From a virus (lineage: Duplodnaviria > Heunggongvirae > Uroviricota > Caudoviricetes): 15,367 bases of DNA. The DNA lies in IMG/VR virus record IMGVR_UViG_2609459844_000007, positions 1 through 15,367 of that record. One strand, written 5' to 3'. The position numbers and the translations under genes were made by a program. The notes under the pieces are model-generated. The model made no database searches, was not told the origin of the DNA, and worked only from the letters and a program-made list of their open reading frames with translations. Shown here piece by piece: positions 5,504 to 14,730 of this stretch (position 1 is the first letter of the stretch; every line of letters begins with the position of its first letter).

Positions 5504-6298
5504 TTACCCCCTGAAGCCTGGCGGGATCGCACTGTCCGGCAACGAGACGGTGTTAACCTGTCGGAGCAACGTCTCAGGCCGAACACCTTTCGGCGCGAAC
5601 AGGCCCTGGTATTCATTGGCGATACTGTGTCGAATCACCTGCTCGGGTGTAAAACCCTGCTGGCGGAATTTTTCCAGCTCCCGTATCGCCCCGTTAGCGC
5701 CCTGCTCCGTTCGAATCGGTTTTCGCAATGCCTGCCTGAACCGGACCCACTCATGCCAGAGTGTTTCCGGCAACCAGTCAGGCAGCTCAATAGCCTCCGG
5801 CTCAAATTTTTTAGACGCTCGTTTTTGGCGAGGGGGATTTAGGGGGAGATCAGTATTTATATCTTCCTCTTCCTCTTCCTCTTCCTCTGGTAACGCTTTT
5901 TGATCCATTTGTGTAACGCTGCCAGCGTTACCTTTTCGTTTCAGTTCGCGTATTTTTGTAACTCGCTCGTTTGTAACCGCCCGTTTTTTAGAGCTTTTTC
6001 CGTTATGACGTTCAAAGTTAGGTAGAGAAAGCCCAACGTCATTTTCGACCAGCCATCCAACCTGAATTAACGCATCAGCAAAACCAGCCATAAAAGTGAT
6101 GCGATCTATTGCACTTTTTGTAACGCCGCGAGCGTTACAATCTGCATTACCGTCTATCATTTGTTGATCCGCCCATGCCCAGAAGCGAATAACCTTCCCT
6201 AATGCGGCATCTGGATCAATATTCAGAATCTCAGCAAGCCTGAATATTTCCGGCTTATCCGGCGTAATAACCTCGAGCTTTATCCAGTTTGAAGCCAT
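5504..6298 (-). CDS. Phage replication initiation protein (YdaU-like), 264 aa, with internal poly-Glu tract
   Basis: Position between CII-like gene and dnaC-like gene as in Rac (ydaT-ydaU-ydaV); family assignment by position and recollection. Confidence 0.65.
   Translation of the reverse strand: MASNWIKLEVITPDKPEIFRLAEILNIDPDAALGKVIRFWAWADQQMIDGNADCNARGVTKSAIDRITFMAGFADALIQVGWLVENDVGLSLPNFERHNGKSSKKRAVTNERVTKIRELKRKGNAGSVTQMDQKALPEEEEEEEEDINTDLPLNPPRQKRASKKFEPEAIELPDWLPETLWHEWVRFRQALRKPIRTEQGANGAIRELEKFRQQGFTPEQVIRHSIANEYQGLFAPKGVRPETLLRQVNTVSLPDSAIPPGFRG
5863..5888. repeat. Simple sequence repeat (cttcct)x4, encoding the EEEEEEEE tract of the replication protein on the minus strand
   Basis: Direct reading of sequence. 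Confidence 0.9.
5913..5931. promoter_or_regulatory. 19-bp palindrome gtaacgc-tgcca-gcgttac (copy 1 of 3), candidate protein-binding site/iteron
   Basis: Perfect 7-bp inverted arms with 5-bp spacer; same arms recur at 6120 and 6312. Confidence 0.45.
6120..6138. promoter_or_regulatory. 19-bp palindrome gtaacgc-cgcga-gcgttac (copy 2 of 3)
   Basis: Direct reading; 207 bp from copy 1. Confidence 0.45.
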
Positions 6299-6311
6299 TT
6301 GTTTTCACCTT

Positions 6312-6330
6312 GTAACGCTCGCAGCGTTAC
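6312..6330. promoter_or_regulatory. 19-bp palindrome gtaacgc-tcgca-gcgttac (copy 3 of 3), just upstream of the replication gene start
   Basis: Direct reading; 192 bp from copy 2. Confidence 0.45.
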
Positions 6331-6375
6331 ATTTAACTGATACCGAACAAAACAATCCGGCACGATTAATTTCAA

Positions 6376-6798
6376 TCAATGCACTACGACAGAATCGCCG
6401 GGCGACCCACCACCGCTGAAATGTGCTTTCCGGTAAACGGCCTGGACTGCATCATCATGCGCATCAATTGCCGTACTCAACGCTTCCTGCGCCGCCAGTA
6501 ATGCACGGCGTTCCAGGGTATCGAAGATGCAGAGTCGGTGACGCAGCTCGCGCGGAAGAATTGCCAGAACCGCAGGGATCAGTTTCTGAATTTTTTCCCT
6601 TTGCGCTTTCGTTTCACCTTTCAACCAACGGTGATAGATATTCTGCTGATTGTTCCAGTCCTTGCCTGGTACAAGGGGCAATTCGCCGCCCCCCTGGCGC
6701 AGATATTCTTCAGTAATTGCGTTAGCGACCCACGCCTGCCCTTTTTCGGCTGCCAGGGCTAACAACACTGATTCGATGTGCTCATGCCTGATTTTCAT
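6376..6798 (-). CDS. ydaT: YdaT-like (CII-like) prophage regulatory protein, 140 aa
   Basis: Sequence resembles recalled Rac YdaT; overlaps upstream Cro-like gene by 4 nt; position downstream of cro. Confidence 0.7.
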   Translation of the reverse strand: MKIRHEHIESVLLALAAEKGQAWVANAITEEYLRQGGGELPLVPGKDWNNQQNIYHRWLKGETKAQREKIQKLIPAVLAILPRELRHRLCIFDTLERRALLAAQEALSTAIDAHDDAVQAVYRKAHFSGGGSPGDSVVVH

Positions 6799-7037
6799 GA
6801 ATCAACCGCTCCTATGCTGTTTTCGCTATGCTTACCGTCTGGGGGGAATACATCGTCAAGTCCACAATGAGCGCCAAGCCGATTAAGGGTAGAAACAATT
6901 TTTCTGCACTCCTCTAGTCCAGGGGTACGAAAATTTGCTTCGTAATTTGCCAGTCGGCTTTGTATCCACCCTAACTGAACAGCAAGTTGTCTTTGAGACA
7001 GCCCAAGCTGTTTTCGATATGTTGAAATTTTGTTCAT
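6795..7037 (-). CDS. Cro-like HTH DNA-binding protein (YdaS-like), 80 aa
   Basis: HTH LGLSQRQLAVQLGWIQSRLANYEA; divergent from repressor gene; GGAGG Shine-Dalgarno 6 nt upstream of ATG. Confidence 0.75.
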   Translation of the reverse strand: MNKISTYRKQLGLSQRQLAVQLGWIQSRLANYEANFRTPGLEECRKIVSTLNRLGAHCGLDDVFPPDGKHSENSIGAVDS

Positions 7038-7133: not shown

Positions 7134-7553
7134 ATGGAAAAAGAAAACGAAAAAATTGCCGCCAGTAGGCTCAATGACAAAATTGCAATGCGTCTTAAAG
7201 AGCGCAGGCAGAAGCTTGGTTTATCTCAAGGAAAACTTGCTGAAATCTGCGGATGGACGCAATCGCGTATAGGTAACTATGAGGCGGGCAGCAGAAATGT
7301 TGGAGTGCATGACGCTGTCGTATTGGGAAAGGCACTTGGCATATCTCCTCCTGAGCTCCTCTTTGGAGAACAGGAATCTTCTGAATTGTGGTTAAATGAA
7401 TCCCAACGAAAACTTCTTGAGTTGTTTAACCAGCTACCGGGCTCAGAACAACAACGAATGATTGAGCTATTTGAAGTCCGGCTAAAAGAAATCGATGAGT
7501 ATGTAGAAAAATATTTGAGAGGCAGGCTTAAAGATAATCCCCCACCGGAGTAA
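7134..7553 (+). CDS. CI-like prophage repressor, XRE-family HTH, 139 aa, no LexA/S24-like peptidase domain
   Basis: HTH LGLSQGKLAEICGWTQSRIGNYEA nearly identical in the recognition region to the Cro-like protein; divergent arrangement across operators. Confidence 0.8.
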   Translation: MEKENEKIAASRLNDKIAMRLKERRQKLGLSQGKLAEICGWTQSRIGNYEAGSRNVGVHDAVVLGKALGISPPELLFGEQESSELWLNESQRKLLELFNQLPGSEQQRMIELFEVRLKEIDEYVEKYLRGRLKDNPPPE

Positions 7554-8232: not shown

Positions 8233-8418
8233 AGGAATACCTTATTACTGGTTGTGTGAGAACTCCAGTATACCACCGAGCCTGAAGTGGTAAAAAGACA
8301 GGCGCACAACACGAAGGCGCATTTCCGGTATTCATAAAGAGTCGGACTTGTCTGTTAAATTTAAATGGTGGGAGTGCGCCTCCGGTTGTAAATAACGACA
8401 TTGCTATGTGTAGTCTTT

Positions 8419-8462
8419 GGCGGCATCAGTTCTACTCCGTGGCTGCCCTGCCGCCCCTTTTT
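8419..8462 (+). terminator. Terminator-like GC stem (ggcggca ... tgccgcc) followed by TTTTT, inside noncoding region upstream of kilR
   Basis: Direct reading; large loop, so strength uncertain. Confidence 0.35.
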
Positions 8463-8627
8463 AAAGTGAATTTTGTGATGCGGTGAATGCGGCTAAGCGC
8501 ACGCGGCACAGTTAAAAGCATCAGTGTTATGGGTGGATTATCCGGCGTTAATTGTTAACTGGTTAACGTCACCTGGAGGCACCAGGCACCGCATCGACAA
8601 AATTCATTTGTAAAAATGGTGATAATT

Positions 8628-8849
8628 ATGATTGCTCATCACTTCGGAACTGATGAAATACCACGTCAGTGTGTGACCCCTGGCGATTATGTTCTTCATG
8701 AAGGTCGGACATATATCGCCTCGGCAAACAATATTAAAAAGCGAAAACTTTATATTCGAAGCCTGACAACAAAAACATGCATTTCTGACTGCATGATTAA
8801 AGTCTTCCTCGGTCGTGATGGTTTACCTGTAAAGGCGGAGTCATGGTAA
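8628..8849 (+). CDS. kilR: KilR-like cell-division inhibitor (Rac kil), 73 aa
   Basis: Sequence [35 protein letters not shown]... matches recalled Rac KilR; gene order kilR-ydaE-racC-recE; track ORF starts 12 nt upstream at 8616 without an SD. Confidence 0.8.
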
Positions 8850-9019
8850 TGACTAAGAAAATAAAATGTGCTTATCACCTTTGCAATAAAGAAATTGAAG
8901 AAAGCAAAATCATTACAAGACCACTTCATTTCATGCGTGAAGTTATACCAACGACGGAAATGAAAAAATATTGTAGTGAAATCTGTGCCGAAAAAGACCA
9001 GATGGCACACGAACTTTAA
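8849..9019 (+). CDS. ydaE: YdaE-like small Cys-rich metal-binding protein, 56 aa (not in ORF track because under 60 aa)
   Basis: Manual translation [56 protein letters not shown]; start overlaps kilR stop (TAATG); position as in Rac. Confidence 0.7.
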   Translation: MTKKIKCAYHLCNKEIEESKIITRPLHFMREVIPTTEMKKYCSEICAEKDQMAHEL

Positions 9020-9093
9020 TTAACTGACTATCCGAAACTGAATTTATGCCAGCAATGGCAGGGATTCGCTCAACCTTAATTAAGGAGAAAAAC

Positions 9094-9369
9094 ATGATTA
9101 CCAGTTATGAAGCCACTGTTGTTACTACTGATGACATTGTTCACGAAGTCAGCCTGGAAGGAAAGCGTATTGGCTACGTGATTAAAACAGAAAATAAAGA
9201 AACCCCTTTCACTGTGGTTGATATCGACGGTCCATCAGGCAACGTTAAAACGCTTAACGAAGGCGTCAAAAAAATGTGCCTGGTGCATATCGGAAAGAAT
9301 CTGCCCGCAGAAAAAAAAGCCGAATTTCTGGCAACTCTGATTGCAATGAAATTAAAAGGTGAAATCTGA
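9094..9369 (+). CDS. racC: RacC-like protein, 91 aa
   Basis: AAGGAG SD 6 nt upstream of ATG at 9094; sequence matches recalled Rac RacC; track ORF starts further upstream at 9046. Confidence 0.8.
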   Translation: MITSYEATVVTTDDIVHEVSLEGKRIGYVIKTENKETPFTVVDIDGPSGNVKTLNEGVKKMCLVHIGKNLPAEKKAEFLATLIAMKLKGEI

Positions 9370-9374
9370 AAGAA

Positions 9375-9399
9375 ATAGCCTGCGTATGGCGCAGGCTAT
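9375..9399 (+). other. Perfect 10-bp inverted repeat hairpin (atagcctgcg-tatgg-cgcaggctat) without U-tract, between racC and recE
   Basis: Direct reading. Confidence 0.6.
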
Positions 9400-9469
9400 G
9401 AACAGTGTGTATCCGGCAAGATTATTCACTGAACAAACGAATTTTAATCTGAGTTGAGGTTAAAAAACA

Positions 9470-12400
9470 ATGAGCACCGATAAACAAGTTTACCCACTGT
9501 ATTACGAAGCAAAAAATGACAAAGTAAGAAAACGTCTCGGTATTAAAGGCGGTTTTTACTGGGCTGAAGCGAAAAAATTATCCATTGCCATCTCCCGTGG
9601 TGCTGTTGCGATTGACGATGCTGGCTACGATGAAGATGACTTCAAAAAACCTGTTCGCGTCAATTTGCCCGTTGTTGATGACCTCCCGCCAGAAGGCGTA
9701 TTTGATACGGAATTCTGCAACCGTTACGAAAAAGGCGGGGAAGATGGCATCACAATGGTATTTATCGCGCCCTCACCCTCTGCGCAGGGCAAACCAGCCG
9801 GCACTGACAACACCAATGTTAATGGCGAAGACATGACGGAGATTGAGGAGAATATGCTACTCCCGATTTCTGGCCAGGAGCTGCCCATTCGCTGGCTTGC
9901 TCAACACGGCAGCGAAAAACCGGTAACGCACGTTTCACGCGACGAACTCCAGGCATTACACATTGCACGGGCTGAGGAACTACCAGCTGTTACTGCCCTA
10001 GCTGTTTCCCACAAAACCAGCCTGCTCGATCCGCTGGAAATTCGCGATCTCCACAAACTGGTGCGTGATACTGACAGAGTTTTCCCTAATCCAGGCAATT
10101 CAAGCCTGGGACTGATGACTGCTTTTTTCGAAGCATACATGAACGCAGACTACACCGATCGCGGTCTGCTGACAAAAGAGTGGATGAAAGGAAATCGTGT
10201 TTCACGCATCACGCGCACGGCTTCCGGCGCTAATGCTGGCGGCGGGAACCTCACCGATCGCGGCGAAGGTTTCGTTCACGATCTGACGTCACTGGCGCGC
10301 GACGTAGCCACTGGCGTACTGGCTCGTTCAATGGACGTGGACATTTATAACCTTCATCCGGCACACGCTAAACGTGTCGAGGAAATTATCGCTGAAAATA
10401 AACCGCCCTTTTCTGTTTTCCGCGACAAATTCATCACCATGCCTGGCGGGCTGGATTATTCCCGCGCCATCGTGGTTGCCTCCGTAAAAGAAGCACCAAT
10501 TGGGATCGAGGTTATCCCCGCACACGTCACTGAATATCTGAACAAAGTACTGACTGAAACTGATCATGCCAACCCTGATCCGGAAATCGTGGATATTGCC
10601 TGCGGTCGCTCCTCTGCCCCGATGCCGCAGCGTGTAACAGAAGAAGAAAAACAGGATGATGAAGAAAAACCGCAACCATCTTGCGCAATGGCAGATGAAC
10701 AGGCAACGGCTGAAACAGTGGAACCGGATGCAACTGAACATCATCAGGACACGCAGCCGCTGGATGCTCAGTCACAGGTAAATTCTGTTGATGCGAAATA
10801 TCAGAAACTGCGGGCAGAACTCCATGAAGCCCGGAAAAACATTCCGCCCAAAAATCCTGTCGATGCAGACAAATTACTGGCTGCCTCTCGCGGAGAATTT
10901 GTTGAAGGGATTAGCGACCCGAATGATCCGAAATGGGTTAAGGGGATCCAGACCCGCGATTCTGTGTACCAGAATCAGCCAGAAACGGAACAGAACGACC
11001 AGAAAGCGGAACAGAACAGCCCAAATACGCAACAAAACGAGCCAGAAACGAAACAGCCTGAGCCAGTAGTGCAACAACTGGAAACGGAGAAAGTTTGCAC
11101 CGCCTGCGGTCAGGCTGGCGGCGGCAACTGTCCTGACTGCGGCGCGGTGATGGGCGACGCAACGTATCAGAAAACCTTTAATGAAGAAAATCAGAATGAA
11201 TATCAGGAAAAAGGTCTGGAGGAAATGGAAGGTGCTGAACATCCGCACAAGGAGAACGCTGGCAGCAATCCGCATTGCGATTGCAGTGATGAAGCTGGTG
11301 AAGCGACAGCACCTGTAGTAACTGAAATCATGTGGCCGTCATATTTCGAGCCTGGCCGCTATGAAAACCTCCCGAACGAGGTTTATCACTCCGCCAACGG
11401 AATAAGCAGCACAATGCTGAAGGATGCCCGCATCAGCCTGATGTATTACCACGGACGGCACATTGCCGGAACTATTCCGGGCGAGGAAAGTGATGCATTG
11501 CTGCGTGGGCGAATTATTCACAGCTATGTTCTGGAAACGGATAAATTCGCTGATGAGTATGCCATTCCGGTACCGGTTCCTGAATATGTGGTTACTACTT
11601 CTAACGAACTGATCGCCATCATTAAAAAACACAATGCCAGTCTGCCAGCACCGATGACACCAGAGCAGATGAAAGAGTGGATCGAAAGCTACAACAGCAC
11701 TCTTATACAGCCACTGTCGGTAAGTGCCGGGGCCGAAGAAACAGGCATCCTTTACGGTTCGCTTCCGGAGGAATTCCGGCGTATTCCTGAGGGGGAAAAA
11801 CACACAGCATCAGCAATGAAAGCCTGTATTAAAGAATACAACGCAAACCTCCCTCCTCTGTTGAAAACCAGTGGATCACGGGAGCAACTTCTGGAGCAAA
11901 TTGAAACTGTAGATCCAGAACTGGCAAAAAAAGAACGTGCTAAATCTTTGCCTTACAACATCAGTGGCACAAAAGAGCAATTAACCGAAATCGCACGGAA
12001 AATTCGCCCGGAACTGGTGACACTGGAAGACTGGCAAAAACGCCAGCAAGAAGAAAACGCCGGGAAAACGTTTATCAGTCCGGATATGTATGAACAGGCA
12101 AAAAATATTCACGCTGCACTGCAAAACAATACCGATGCAGCAAGGCTACTCAACCACCCGGATCGCAAATCTGAAATCAGCTATTTCGGGTTTGATGAAG
12201 AAACCGGGCTGGAAATCAGGGTCCGTCCTGATATCGAAATCCGGCTGCCATACGAAAGCATTTGCGCCGACGTGAAGTCAGTCAGCCTCGGTTATGTGCG
12301 ACAGGAACGACTGAAAGATCGCCTGCACCGTGAAATTATTGAGCGTGATTATCACCTCAGCGCAGCAATGTATTGCGATGTGGCAAACCTGGACAAATTT

Positions 12401-12766
12401 TTCTGGATCTTCGTCAACAAAGATGCTGGCTATCACTGGGTGGCCGTCGTGGAAGCCTCGCAGGAACTCCTGGAACTTGGTCGACAGGAATATCGCCGGA
12501 CGCTACGACAGATAAATGAAGCTCTGGAGACAAACAACTGGCCAGCACCGATTACCGAAAGTTATACCGACGAATTAAACGACTTTGATCTTCGTCGTCT
12601 TGAGAAGATGATAAATAACCTGCCTTCATCAGGTGATCCAGAAGCAGAACAAAAATTTATTGCTCTGGAAAATACGCTGAATGCTGCACGACCACATCTG
12701 GGAGAATTATATGAGGCGTATAAAACGACACTGACAGATATGAAACCAGAATATATCGGCTCCTGA
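9470..12766 (+). CDS. recE: RecE-family exonuclease VIII homologue, 1098 aa, with divergent C-terminal PD-(D/E)XK nuclease domain carrying a ~150-aa insertion and a C-terminal extension
   Basis: N-terminal/central ~600 aa closely resemble recalled K-12 RecE (e.g. [43 protein letters not shown]); Cys4 cluster [16 protein letters not shown]; PD...DVK motif at 12227..12276. Confidence 0.85.
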
Positions 12767-12774
12767 TATTTACT

Positions 12775-12798
12775 ATGGCGGTGTAGCCTCACCGCCAT
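12775..12798 (+). other. Perfect 9-bp inverted repeat hairpin (atggcggtg-tagcct-caccgccat) between recE and ralR
   Basis: Direct reading. Confidence 0.6.
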
Positions 12799-12829
12799 AA
12801 CAAAACTTTATTTTATGAGAGAAAAGACA

Positions 12830-13024
12830 ATGCGGTATGAAAAAGTCAAACCATGTCCGTTTTGTGGTTGTCCATCAGTAACGGTGAAAGCCATTTCAGG
12901 ATATTACCGCGCAAAGTGTAACGGATGCGAATCCCGAACTGGCTATAGTGGAAGTGAAAAAGAAGCACTCGAAAGATGGAATAAACGAACTACTGGAAAT
13001 AATAATGGAGGTGTTCATGTATAA
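12830..13024 (+). CDS. ralR: RalR/Lar-like restriction alleviation protein, 64 aa
   Basis: MRYEKVKPCPFCGCPSVTVKAISGYYRAKCNGCESRTGY... matches recalled Rac RalR (Lar); Cys4 motif; track ORF begins at upstream ATG 12815. Confidence 0.8.
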   Translation: MRYEKVKPCPFCGCPSVTVKAISGYYRAKCNGCESRTGYSGSEKEALERWNKRTTGNNNGGVHV

Positions 13025-13205
13025 AATTACTGCCACTATTGAAAAGGAAGGTGGCACTCCTACTAACTGGACAAGGTACTCAAAAACAAAATTAACCAAA
13101 TCAGAATGCGAAAAAATGCTCTCAGGTAAAAAAGAAGCAGGCGTTTCCAGAGAGCAGAAAGTAAAGCTGATAAATTTTAATTGCGAGAAGCTTCTGTCCT
13201 CGTGA
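13017..13205 (+). CDS. ydaC: YdaC-like small protein, 62 aa
   Basis: GGAGG SD 5 nt upstream of ATG 13017; overlaps ralR stop; resembles recalled Rac YdaC; track ORF starts at 12948 inside ralR. Confidence 0.65.
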   Translation: MYKITATIEKEGGTPTNWTRYSKTKLTKSECEKMLSGKKEAGVSREQKVKLINFNCEKLLSS

Positions 13206-13260
13206 GTTGCATTATATACAAATTAGAACTTCATAGCTGATTATTAAAAATCAACCACCC

Positions 13261-13289
13261 CCGCCAGTATTCTGTATATTTACTGGCGG
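13261..13289 (+). other. 9-bp inverted repeat hairpin (ccgccagta ... tactggcgg, 11-nt loop) between ydaC and xis
   Basis: Direct reading. Confidence 0.55.
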
Positions 13290-13305
13290 TCATATCGTAA
13301 GAGGT

Positions 13306-13592
13306 ATGGCAATGAATCTTGTGACACTAAAAACGTGGGGAAACTCAGATATCCAGATAACCCACCATCAATATCAACGCTGAGACGATGGGCAAGGAAT
13401 GGAAACATTTATCCTGCACCTGAACTACACGGGAGGAGTTACAGGGTGGTTCCGGAGGCTTTCTATATCAACCCAAATAAGGTTGATACCGATATAACAC
13501 ACCATCAGCCTAATGGGCGACAAGGGAGAGACAGTCCGTTACTGGAGAAGTTAAAACATGCAGCGGAAAAAATACGATCCCAATTTGCCTAA
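13306..13592 (+). pseudogene. Excisionase (lambda Xis-like winged helix) with apparent -1 frameshift in a G4 run (13337..13340); downstream frame opens with GTG at 13335
   Basis: Frame 1 from ATG 13306 encodes MAMNLVTLKTWG then stops; frame 3 continues KLRYPDNPPSISTLRRWARNGNIYP...; together they align with the recalled lambda Xis N-terminus (LTLQEWNARQRRPRSLETVRRWVRE). Confidence 0.55.
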
Positions 13593-14634
13593 AAACTTAA
13601 CATATCGAAGGAGGGACAAAGCATATTACTGGCGCAACCCTATGACGAAAGAAGAATTTACACTAGGTAAAATTTCAAGAAGAGATGCAGTAGCGCAGGC
13701 AATTGAAGCAAATCATTATATATACAAAAACTACTCTCCTGCTGCCTTAATTGAAAAGCTTAAAGGGTTCGACTCATTTACTATGGCAGACTGGATTGAA
13801 CGTTACAAAACGATTCTTATAAGGAGAAAAGTGTCCAGAAATACTTATAAAATTCGGGTAAATCAACTGGAGACAATAAAAGAAAAATTGGGAGGGATTT
13901 TACTGACAGAAATAACCACTCGCCATATTGCCGAGTTTCTTGATTTGTGGATTGAAGGAGGGAAAAACACGATGGCAGGATCAATGCGTTCTGTGTTATC
14001 TGATATGTTCCGCGAGGCCATTGTTGAAGGACGTATATCTCAAAATCCAGTAACGCCAACAAGAGCACCGAAAATAGTAGTTACAAGAGAACGGCTGAAA
14101 CTAAAGACATACAACTGCATCAGGGAGGCAGCAGATCAACTTCCGACATGGTTCCCATTAGCTATGGACTTAGCCCTTGTAACAGGACAACGTCGCGAAG
14201 ACATAACGAATATGCGGTTCAGTGAGATTTATGATGATCGTCTCCACATCAGGCAAATTAAGACAGGAATGATGATTGCTATCCCCCTGTCACTCAGCCT
14301 TCCTGTCGCTGGTTTACGACTTGGTGCAGTAGTTGAACAGTGCCGCATGGTAAGTAGGGGGGATTATCTAATCAGTGCCGGGATTAGAAAAAACAGCCCT
14401 GACGGTAGCATTCACCCGGACGGCCTGACAAAGAAATTTGTCGCAGCCAGAAAATTAACAGGTATCCAGTTCAGTGAAAACCCACCAACTTTTCACGAGA
14501 TCAGAAGCCTGGCTGGACGATTGTACAAAGAAACATGTGGAGAAGAATTTGCTCAGCGTCTACTTGGCCACACATCGGAGAAGACAACAAAAATGTATCT
14601 TGATGAGAGAGAAAAAACGTACTTACTGCTCTGA
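13558..14634 (+). CDS. int: Tyrosine integrase, lambda Int family, 358 aa
   Basis: N-terminus aligns with recalled lambda Int (PPNLYIRNNGYYCYRDPRTGKEFGLG versus [27 protein letters not shown]); catalytic-region motifs [21 protein letters not shown]-terminal Tyr in TTKMYLDE. Confidence 0.9.
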
Positions 14635-14710
14635 TTTTAACGTAAATGGATTGTTAAATGTATTTTGGTTGTGATATAACCAAAAAGACCGGAATACAGA
14701 AATTCGAGTA

Positions 14711-14730
14711 AATTTCGGGGAATTTCGGGG
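14711..14730. repeat. Tandem direct repeat aatttcgggg x2 in the int-proximal att arm; candidate arm-type integrase binding sites
   Basis: Direct reading; related motif aaattttcgggaat at 1227..1240 in the opposite arm. Confidence 0.4.

What the first reader, a model, noticed from the sequence alone, without database searches (positions are those of the whole stretch)
9375..13289. Perfect GC-rich intergenic hairpins without U-tracts punctuating the early-left operon
Three intergenic inverted repeats with 9-10 bp perfect stems (9375..9399 after racC, 12775..12798 after recE, 13261..13289 after ydaC) lack the U-run of intrinsic terminators. They could be RNase III processing or retroregulation sites (as lambda sib is for int), mRNA stabilisers, or protein-binding sites. 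Their recurrence at gene boundaries suggests function rather than chance.
Basis: seen in the sequence. Interest (0 to 1): 0.35.

Follow-up and report, generated by a model that had tools for sequence, protein, structure and literature searches.

The report
Three hairpins, three different jobs
The three hairpins in this Rac-like E. coli prophage are real and conserved, but they are three different elements: the terminator of an abundant unannotated small RNA on the opposite strand, a U-less stem-loop in front of the toxin gene ralR, and an inverted repeat around the -10 box of a predicted xis-int promoter.

Summary
All three perfect hairpins exist at the stated coordinates. Shuffles predict 0.15 such hairpins in this stretch, and none of 500 shuffles reaches 3.

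HP1 (9375-9399) has no U-run only on the + strand. On the - strand it is a canonical intrinsic terminator. In E. coli K-12, public Term-seq puts a strong 3' end in its T-tract. A public transcription-start table puts a start about 64 nt upstream, behind a conserved TTGTTT-18-TAAAAT promoter that overlaps the recE start codon. HP1 therefore ends an unannotated, roughly 64-nt RNA antisense to the racC-recE spacer.

HP2 (12774-12799) natively follows recT; the window carries a recE::recT' deletion fusion. Its stem stays conserved although the upstream recT allele is replaced. It has no U-tract on either strand, so it is probably a protective or processing stem-loop. This is not proven.

HP3 (13261-13289) lies 6 nt downstream of a YdaT box (CTGATT-N6-AATCAA; YdaT is the lambda CII analogue). 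Its loop carries a TAnnnT -10 element exactly 20-21 nt from the box in eight unrelated sequence variants. It probably marks a lambda pI-like xis-int promoter. The role of the GC-rich arms is unresolved.

The RNase III/sib-like reading is not supported.

The parts
9375..9399 (-). HP1: terminator stem-loop of a minus-strand small RNA (10-bp stem, 5-nt loop)
   Evidence: Exact inverted repeat. Top minus-strand terminator-like site. K-12 Term-seq 3' end lies 4 nt after the stem on this strand. RNAalifold on 15 alleles gives 9 pairs, 3 with compensatory changes and 2 rows with C->U making U.G on this strand.
9368..9374 (-). T-tract of the HP1 terminator (TTCTTTC on the - strand); predicted RNA 3' end at about 9371
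   Evidence: Sequence. The homologous K-12 position 1417486(+) is a Term-seq 3' end with 185,664 and 146,140 average reads in the two rows shown. The other allele has TTTCTTTTTTT.
9371..9434 (-). Predicted ~64-nt small RNA, antisense to the racC-recE spacer: a 5' stem-loop plus the HP1 terminator
   Evidence: K-12 class I TSS 'FWD_(I)-1415447' (U00096.2 coordinates; about 1417424 in NC_000913.3) lies 7-9 nt after the -10, and the 3' end comes. Folding gives -22.6 kcal/mol, z = -4.6. No Rfam family, no RefSeq ncRNA, no name found in the literature.
9441..9470 (-). Promoter of the small RNA: -35 TTGTTT (9470->9465), 18-nt spacer, -10 TAAAAT (9446->9441). It overlaps the recE RBS and ATG (9470).
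   Evidence: Read from the sequence. The block is invariant across both sRNA alleles and Citrobacter. The K-12 TSS agrees. Loci with a different gene upstream of recE lack the TAAAAT and the hairpin.
12774..12799 (+). HP2: U-less GC-rich stem-loop in the (recT)-ralR spacer, 7 nt after the stop codon and 15-30 nt before the ralR start
   Evidence: The core GGCGGTG/CACCGCC is kept behind two unrelated recT 3' ends, with loops TAGCCT, TAATG, TAGTCC and TAATA. No T-run is adjacent on either strand. It is not the RalA pairing site.
13237..13254 (.). YdaT box (CTGATT-ATTAAA-AATCAA), binding motif of the CII analogue YdaT
   Evidence: Published motif is 5'-TTGATT-N6-AATCAA-3'. The window has 2 matches with at most 1 mismatch against 0.12 expected (0 of 200 shuffles reach 2). 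The other match is the known site at the ydaT start, 6788-6805. K-12 shows the same pair.
13261..13289 (+). HP3: GC-rich inverted repeat (9-bp arms) whose 11-nt 'loop' holds the -10 element. It ends 10 nt before the xis Shine-Dalgarno sequence.
   Evidence: Equivalent repeats with unrelated arm sequences occur at the same place in 8 types.
13275..13280 (+). Predicted -10 hexamer TATATT of a YdaT-dependent xis-int promoter. The predicted TSS is at about 13287, with the box centred at -41.5.
   Evidence: TAnnnT lies 20-21 nt after the box in all 8 types, whatever the loop length. Per-type chance is 1-4%, with a product of 5.5e-14.
13023..13201 (-). RalA antitoxin sRNA. Its -10 TATAAT (13216->13211) lies exactly 20 nt from the other edge of the YdaT box.
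   Evidence: Rfam RF02694, 212 bits. The spacing is read from the sequence and is the same in K-12 with TACAAT.
9470..12766 (+). Context: recE::recT' fusion ORF, deletion junction at about 12596-12604
   Evidence: Alignment with E. coli LWY24, which has intact recE and recT.
12830..13024 (+). Context: ralR (type I toxin)
13312..13593 (+). Context: xis, frameshifted in this window

Best explanation
The three hairpins are three different functional elements.

HP1 is the Rho-independent terminator of a ~64-nt RNA made from the minus strand. Its promoter (TTGTTT-18-TAAAAT) overlaps the recE ribosome-binding site and start codon. The RNA runs antisense through the racC-recE spacer and stops in the T-tract after HP1. 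On the sense strand the same palindrome is only a passive U-less hairpin. Inferred: by convergent transcription and by pairing with the polycistronic early-left mRNA, the RNA dampens recE expression.

HP2 is an RNA stem-loop without a U-tract that travels with ralR. Most likely it is a 3'-exonuclease barrier or processing boundary that defines the end of the recET message just before the toxin gene. This would place it with the U-less stem-loops that cap Rho-terminated transcripts in E. coli.

HP3 is not a simple hairpin. A YdaT (CII-like) box lies 6 nt upstream of it. A -10 hexamer sits in its loop at a fixed 20-21 nt from the box, and its arms span about -28 to +2 of the predicted promoter. 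It most likely marks the lambda-pI analogue of Rac-like prophages, a YdaT-activated xis-int promoter. The GC-rich arms form an RNA stem-loop only on transcripts that read in from upstream.
For: HP1, shown:
- K-12 Term-seq 3' end at 1417486(+) lies inside the T-tract, with 185,664 and 146,140 reads. It is the only 3' end listed between 1411575 and 1419679.
- A class I TSS lies 7-9 nt after the -10.
- The promoter block is invariant while the transcribed body exists as two alleles plus a longer Citrobacter form, each ending in a stem followed by a T-run.
- Three stem pairs show compensatory changes. The C->U changes give U.G on the minus strand, which would be C.A on the plus strand.
- The fold has z = -4.6.
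- The V1 allele is present in 1752 of 5426 complete E. coli genomes.

HP2:
- The stem is conserved across two unrelated upstream recT alleles, with homology breaking at the 5' edge of the stem, and the loops vary.
- No U-tract lies on either strand.
- Dar & Sorek describe this class of structure.

HP3:
- The YdaT-box motif was established by footprinting and reporters.
- The window has exactly two near-perfect boxes, the known one at the ydaT start and this one, against 0.12 expected. K-12 shows the same pair.
- Eight sequence-unrelated versions upstream of homologous xis genes all have box, then 20-21 nt, then TAnnnT, with a flanking GC-rich inverted repeat and loop lengths of 7-18 nt.
- The imperfect stem positions I scored by eye on those sequences are almost all G.U on the sense strand. 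The sense-strand hairpin is more stable than the antisense one in 5 of the 8 types.
Against: HP1: no experiment addresses function. I could not find whether the RNA already has a name in supplementary tables that are not held. The U00096.2-to-.3 coordinate conversion is uncertain by 1-2 nt.

HP2: no 3' end is seen there in K-12 Term-seq, although the operon is repressed in K-12. Stem variants are few and do not favour a strand: A->G gives U.G on the sense strand in 3 loci, and T->C gives U.G on the antisense strand in 1 locus. No C-rich rut-like sequence is evident downstream by eye.

HP3:
- No sense-strand TSS appears near xisR in the K-12 TSS table.
- YdaT overexpression reportedly does not induce Rac excision.
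- A transcript from the predicted TSS would lack the 5' arm, so the promoter reading and the RNA-hairpin reading explain different features.
- Folding gave no consistent effect of the 5' arm on accessibility of the xis translation start.
- MAFFT/RNAalifold could not align the unrelated stems, so the pairing was scored per sequence rather than on an alignment.
Confidence: 0.6

Rival explanations
1. All three are sense-strand RNA processing or retroregulation sites: RNase III targets like lambda sib, or hairpins that punctuate the early-left mRNA.
For: All three fold stably on the + strand. HP2 and HP3 lack U-tracts on both strands. HP3 variants carry sense-strand G.U pairs.
Against: The stems are only 9-10 bp, and the one longer extension found (HP2, minus strand) is not conserved. 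RNase III substrates normally span about two helical turns (own knowledge). HP1's variants and mapped 3' end point to the other strand. None lies downstream of int, as sib does.
Confidence: 0.1
2. HP3, and possibly HP2, are DNA operators: palindromes bound by a dimeric, module-specific protein that represses the xis-int (or ralR) promoter.
For: The HP3 arms cover about -28 to +2 of the predicted promoter, a classic repressor position (and sequence). The arm sequence changes together with the xis-int module. The exact 9-mer TACTGGCGG recurs twice elsewhere in the window.
Against: Half-site spacing varies from 7 to 18 nt between types. Imperfect positions are G.T on one strand only, which is not expected for a protein-read palindrome. 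The K-12 att regions hold only one one-mismatch match to an arm 9-mer, inside ttcA, so Int or Xis arm-type binding is unlikely. The two extra 9-mers lie inside coding sequence.
Confidence: 0.2
3. HP2 and HP3 are neutral or recombination-related 'boundary' palindromes at mosaic junctions of lambdoid modules, with no regulatory role.
For: Homology between alleles breaks exactly at the 5' edge of HP2 and close to the 5' edge of HP3, just after the YdaT box. The HP1 loop is found in both orientations, which shows palindrome-driven rearrangement.
Against: The HP3 geometry is recreated with unrelated sequences in 8 types, and its -10 is held at a fixed distance from the box. The HP2 stem is the best-conserved part of its spacer.
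Confidence: 0.1

Closest known systems
Intrinsic (Rho-independent) terminators of cis-antisense or intergenic sRNAs in prophages (e.g. lambda OOP, RalA, DicF)
   Same: HP1 has a GC-rich stem followed by a T-tract, a 3' end mapped in the tract, its own sigma70-like promoter, a short structured RNA, and a position convergent with a phage operon.
   Different: The RNA is not in Rfam or the RefSeq annotation. Its promoter overlaps the recE start codon. Its function and any Hfq/ProQ dependence are unknown.
U-less protective stem-loops at 3' ends of Rho-terminated transcripts (Dar & Sorek 2018, PMC6061677)
   Same: HP2 is an energetically stable stem-loop just after a stop codon with no uridine-rich tail.
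   Different: No 3' end, Rho dependence or rut site has been shown here. The next gene, ralR, starts only 15-30 nt downstream.
Lambda pI: CII-activated int promoter
   Same: A box for the CII analogue YdaT lies just upstream of the recombination genes, with a weak -35 and a -10 at a fixed distance. The box centre at -41.5 overlaps the -35 region.
   Different: The box is an inverted repeat (TTGATT-N6-AATCAA), not TTGC-N6-TTGC. The promoter lies upstream of xis rather than inside it, so it would express xis as well. The -10 is embraced by a GC-rich inverted repeat. The same box may also serve the divergent RalA promoter.
Lambda sib / RNase III retroregulation
   Same: Both are hairpins in the pL operon near int and xis.
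   Different: sib lies downstream of int, is much longer, and depends on read-through of tI. HP1-3 are 9-10 bp and lie upstream of their genes.

Membership tests
Intrinsic terminator (HP1, minus strand) | GC-rich stem-loop directly followed by a U-tract | tested here: met
   The stem is followed by TTCTTTC in the window and K-12 allele, TTTCTTTTTTT in allele V2, and TTTTTCTTTTT in Citrobacter.
Intrinsic terminator (HP1, minus strand) | RNA 3' end mapped in vivo within the U-tract | tested here: met
   Public Term-seq places a 3' end at K-12 1417486(+), 4 nt after the stem. The window allele differs by 2 nt upstream of the stem.
Intrinsic terminator (HP2 and HP3, either strand) | U-tract within about 2 nt of the stem | tested here: not met
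   Neither strand has an adjacent T-run. The nearest T-run after HP2 starts 8-10 nt away.
Small regulatory RNA gene (HP1 transcript) | Own promoter and TSS, a defined 3' end, and conservation | tested here: met
   TSS, 3' end, conserved promoter, and 1752 genomes.
Small regulatory RNA gene (HP1 transcript) | Demonstrated target or regulatory effect | not testable with these tools
   Only complementarity to the racC-recE spacer mRNA can be stated.
Protective stem-loop of Rho-terminated transcripts (HP2) | Stable stem-loop without a U-rich tail, downstream of an ORF | tested here: met
   Searches show a 10-bp stem beginning 7 nt after the stop codon.
Protective stem-loop of Rho-terminated transcripts (HP2) | Steady-state 3' end immediately after the stem, with Rho and exonuclease dependence | tested here: inconclusive
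   No 3' end appears in K-12 Term-seq, but the operon is repressed there. The Dar & Sorek tables are not held.
RNase III site / sib-like retroregulator | Roughly 20 bp or more of (interrupted) double-stranded RNA | tested here: not met
   Stems are 9-10 bp. The HP2 15-bp extension exists only on the minus strand of one allele.
RNase III site / sib-like retroregulator | Located 3' of the regulated gene (int) | tested here: not met
   All three lie upstream of xis and int.
YdaT (CII-like)-dependent promoter (HP3 region) | Match to TTGATT-N6-AATCAA | tested here: met
   11 of 12 positions match at 13237-13254. There are 2 near-perfect hits against 0.12 expected.
YdaT (CII-like)-dependent promoter (HP3 region) | -10 element at a fixed distance from the box, conserved among relatives | tested here: met
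   TAnnnT lies at +20/21 in 8 of 8 types.
YdaT (CII-like)-dependent promoter (HP3 region) | YdaT binding and YdaT-dependent transcription start | not testable with these tools
   The YdaT papers do not mention xisR or intR. The K-12 TSS table has no sense-strand TSS there.

The most novel reading that the evidence does not exclude
In Rac/CP-933P-type prophages, one palindromic YdaT box may drive two divergent promoters placed symmetrically 20 nt from its edges. One makes the antitoxin/antisense RNA RalA, which would correspond to lambda paQ. The other is an xis-int promoter, which would correspond to lambda pI, and its -10 lies in the loop of a GC-rich hairpin. The hairpin forms only on transcripts that enter from the early-left operon, so it would mark read-through RNA as different from activator-driven RNA. 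This would be a new way to separate the integration and excision programmes. In addition, an abundant unannotated sRNA fired from the recE start codon may help keep recET silent.
Probability: 0.25. Interest if true: 0.7.

Novelty: new variant of a known kind. Interest (0 to 1): 0.5.

Why it matters
Rac is the source of the RecET recombineering system and is among the best-studied cryptic prophages. Even so, its left arm is annotated with only RalA and KilS as RNAs and with no promoter for xis-int.

This work points to two concrete and cheaply testable additions. The first is an abundant ~64-nt RNA whose promoter sits on the recE start codon. Its V1 allele is present in about a third of complete E. 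coli genomes. The second is a likely target of the CII analogue YdaT in front of xis-int and RalA, which would complete the lambda-like CII regulon (pRE, pI, paQ) for this phage group.

The -10 element enclosed by a covarying hairpin is an unusual promoter architecture that deserves a mutational test.

Tried and rejected
- LexA box in the HP3 loop: only one half-site matches, read by eye.
- HP2 as the RalA pairing site: the 16-nt repeat lies at 12952-12967 inside ralR, not at HP2.
- HP3 arms as Int or Xis arm-type sites: no copies near attL in the window, and only one one-mismatch match in the K-12 attL/attR regions, inside ttcA.
- Alternative pairing, in which the 5' arm frees the xis start on read-through RNA only: no consistent difference in accessibility of the translation start across 8 types.
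- RNAalifold on a MAFFT alignment of the HP3 types: the stems are too dissimilar to align, so the result is uninformative.
- e14 xisE of K-12 as a test case with Term-seq data: it is a different xis type without the element.
- Searches for 3' ends or TSSs at HP2 and HP3: nothing in Adams 2021 or Romero 2014. The Dar & Sorek and Rend-seq supplements and Thomason 2015 are not held. The Tjaden 2023 tables give only operon calls.
- Literature searches for a name for the HP1 RNA found none.
- Promoter guesses upstream of HP2 were inconsistent between alleles and were dropped.
Full report
**Context.** The window is the left arm of a Rac-like E. coli prophage inserted next to yebY and SdsR/RyeA.
- On the + strand it carries racC-like (9046-9369), a 1098-aa 'recE' (9470-12766), ralR (12830-13024), rcbA/ydaC (13017-13205), xis (from 13312) and int (13558-14634).
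- Alignment with E. coli LWY24 shows that the long ORF is a recE::recT' fusion produced by a deletion of about 900 bp. The junction lies at about 12596-12604.
- xis carries a 1-nt frameshift.
- Rfam finds RalA on the minus strand (13201->13023, 212 bits), plus DicF-like, SdsR and RyeA RNAs. It finds nothing at the three hairpins.

**Observation.** The three perfect inverted repeats are at the stated coordinates.
- A scan for perfect stems of at least 9 bp with loops of 3-12 nt finds 3 in 9000-13600. Dinucleotide shuffles predict 0.15, and 0 of 500 reach 3.
- The whole window has 6 against 0.58 expected.

**HP1 (9375-9399).**
- In every allele the stem is preceded on the + strand by an A-rich run. 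On the - strand this becomes a stem followed by a T-tract: TTCTTTC, or TTTCTTTTTTT in the second allele, or TTTTTCTTTTT in Citrobacter.
- In K-12 the hairpin is identical.
- The Term-seq tables of Adams et al. 2021 list a 3' end at NC_000913.3 1417486(+), classed 'antisense racC', with 185,664 and 146,140 average reads in the two rows shown. Its sequence is HP1 read on the strand opposite to racC and recE, and the end falls 4 nt after the stem. It is the only 3' end listed between 1411575 and 1419679.
- The minus strand carries TTGTTT-18-TAAAAT (9470->9441), overlapping the recE RBS and ATG.
- The TSS table of Romero et al. 2014 lists a class I forward TSS at 1415447 in U00096.2 coordinates. 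This converts to about 1417424 in NC_000913.3, give or take 1-2 nt, which is 7-9 nt after that -10.
- Together these define an RNA of about 64 nt (window 9434->9371). It folds into a 5' stem-loop plus terminator at -22.6 kcal/mol, z = -4.6.
- Across the loci that retain the TAAAAT, 35 unique sequences in all, the promoter block is invariant. The transcribed body exists as two alleles, each with its own 5' hairpin and terminator. Loci with a different gene upstream of recE lack both the -10 and the hairpin.
- RNAalifold on 15 distinct alleles gives 9 terminator pairs. Three show compensatory changes (for example G-C to A-U at the loop-closing pair). Two rows have C->U giving U.G on the minus strand, which would be C.A on the plus strand.
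- The V1 allele occurs in 1752 of 5426 complete E. coli genomes and is not annotated as an RNA in the rows shown. It is also absent from the K-12 RefSeq annotation and from Rfam. I found no name for it.
- Shown: HP1 is a working minus-strand terminator of an abundant small RNA.
- Inferred: the RNA interferes with recE expression, either through promoter overlap and convergent transcription or through a 64-bp duplex with the early-left mRNA. RNase III could cut such a duplex.

**HP2 (12774-12799).** This hairpin natively lies between recT and ralR.
- The core GGCGGTG/CACCGCC is retained behind two unrelated recT 3' ends. Homology breaks exactly at the 5' edge of the stem.
- The loop varies (TAGCCT, TAATG, TAGTCC, TAATA) and so does the downstream spacer.
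- More distant ralR homologues (Citrobacter, L010) have no hairpin.
- Neither strand has an adjacent U-tract.
- A 15-bp minus-strand extension seen in the window allele is not conserved.
- Stem variants are few and split between strands, so the acting strand is undetermined.
- The hairpin is not the RalA-ralR pairing site, which lies at 12952-12967.
- K-12 shows no 3' end there, but the operon is repressed in K-12.
- The closest described class is the U-less stem-loop that protects Rho-terminated transcripts from 3' exonucleases (Dar & Sorek 2018). I adopt this reading as the most likely, with low to moderate confidence.

**HP3 (13261-13289).** Behind the rcbA/RalA-promoter block only two types occur in 202 loci, one for each xis-int module.
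- Type A, as in the window, is CCGCCAGTA-N11-TACTGGCGG.
- Type B, as in K-12, is GGGCGTCAAT-N11-ATTGGCGCCT.
- Stems are nearly invariant within each type.
- Homologous xis genes elsewhere carry an equivalent GC-rich inverted repeat at the same place but with unrelated arm sequences and loops of 7-18 nt. Examples are Salmonella phage ZC-S1, PPompW phages and five further viral-contig types.
- Each type has an AT-rich dyad upstream: xTGATT-N6-AATCAA in five types, and degenerate in types C, D and F.
- This dyad is the YdaT box. YdaT, the CII analogue of Rac and CP-933P, binds 5'-TTGATT-N6-AATCAA-3' and activates the pRE-like promoter PracR4 (PMC11879457 and PMC9986795).
- The window has exactly two matches with at most 1 mismatch, against 0.12 expected (0 of 200 shuffles reach 2). 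One is the published site at the ydaT start (6788-6805) and the other is 13237-13254. K-12 has the same pair.
- In all eight types a TAnnnT hexamer (TATATT, TAACAT, TATAGT twice, TAAAAT, TACAGT, TATCCT, TATGAT) lies 20-21 nt after the box, whatever the loop length. The per-type chance is 1-4%, and the product is 5.5e-14 if the types are independent.
- This places the box centre at -41.5 from the predicted TSS (about 13287), a class II activator position. The arms then span about -28 to +2.
- On the other side of the box, the RalA -10 (TATAAT, or TACAAT in K-12) is also exactly 20 nt away.
- None of the three YdaT papers searched mentions xisR, an excisionase or an integrase.
- I therefore read the HP3 region as a predicted YdaT-dependent xis-int promoter, the analogue of lambda pI.
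- A CII-type box upstream of xis also appears in phage Tbat2_3. There TTGC-N6-TTGC is preceded by two canonical terminators.

**What the HP3 arms do remains open.**
- The imperfect positions I scored by eye on the per-type sequences are nearly all G.U on the sense strand: B1 has two, D two, E one, G two and H one, against one U.U in B2.
- The sense-strand hairpin is more stable than the antisense one in 5 of the 8 types and about equal in the 3 perfect palindromes.
- This favours an RNA stem-loop on transcripts that enter from upstream. A transcript from the predicted TSS would lack the 5' arm.
- A test of alternative pairing with the xis translation start gave no consistent effect.
- A DNA-operator role is not excluded. 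Against it stand the variable half-site spacing, the strand-specific G.T pattern, and the near-absence of arm-like sequences in the att regions.
- Caveats: no TSS has been observed at xisR in K-12, and YdaT overexpression reportedly does not induce excision.

**Verdict.**
- The unifying interpretation is not supported. RNase III/sib-like sites are unlikely, because the stems are too short, they sit in the wrong position relative to int, and HP1 acts on the other strand.
- HP1 is an ordinary kind of element, a terminator, that exposes an unannotated and abundant sRNA.
- HP2 is probably a member of the known U-less protective stem-loop class.
- HP3 is the most interesting: a predicted CII-type (YdaT) promoter whose -10 is enclosed by a covarying hairpin.

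Noticed in passing
window 9470-12766 (junction about 12596-12604): The 'recE' ORF is a recE::recT' fusion. A deletion of about 900 bp at a TTGA microhomology removes the recE 3' end and most of recT, compared with E. coli LWY24.
   Followed up: partly
window 13312-13593: xis is frameshifted (GGGGAAACTC here, GGGGAAAACTC in relatives). Together with the recET deletion, this suggests the prophage is decaying.
   Followed up: partly
window 9385-9389 and homologues (L036, L058, L060): The HP1 loop occurs in both orientations (TATGG or CCATA) between otherwise identical stems. This looks like palindrome-mediated loop inversion.
   Followed up: no
window 13211-13216 (-) with 13237-13254: The RalA -10 lies exactly 20 nt from the YdaT box, mirroring the xis-side -10. 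RalA may be YdaT-activated, which would make it a paQ-like antisense RNA.
   Followed up: partly
loci L095, L096, L104, L106, L125, L167 and others: Many Rac-like prophages carry a third exact TGATT-N6-AATCA box 2441 bp from another box that, by its distance from the xis box, is probably the ydaT-start site. The window has none at the corresponding place.
   Followed up: no
window 5889-6331: Four inverted repeats are built on GTAACGC/GCGTTAC (5889/5924, 5913/5923, 6118/6132, 6311/6323). Two of them are perfect 9-bp hairpins. They may be iterons or operator sites in the replication region.
   Followed up: no
window 6492-6500 (-) and 7159-7167 (-): Exact copies of the HP3 arm 9-mer TACTGGCGG lie inside the ydaT and racR-like ORFs. 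There are 10 hits with at most 1 mismatch against 2.1 expected. Both exact copies are in coding sequence, and their meaning is unclear.
   Followed up: partly
L210 1390-1490 (Flyfo siphovirus Tbat2_3): Upstream of a homologous xis there are two canonical intrinsic terminators followed by TTGC-N6-TTGC, the lambda CII-type box. The logic is the same but the parts differ.
   Followed up: no
window 8405-8635: A DicF-like RNA (61 bits) is followed by an STnc100-like match just below the gathering score. Both lie upstream of kilR.
   Followed up: no
window 14709-14730: The direct repeat AATTTCGGGG occurs twice just downstream of int, near the prophage end. These may be Int or Xis arm-type sites.
   Followed up: no
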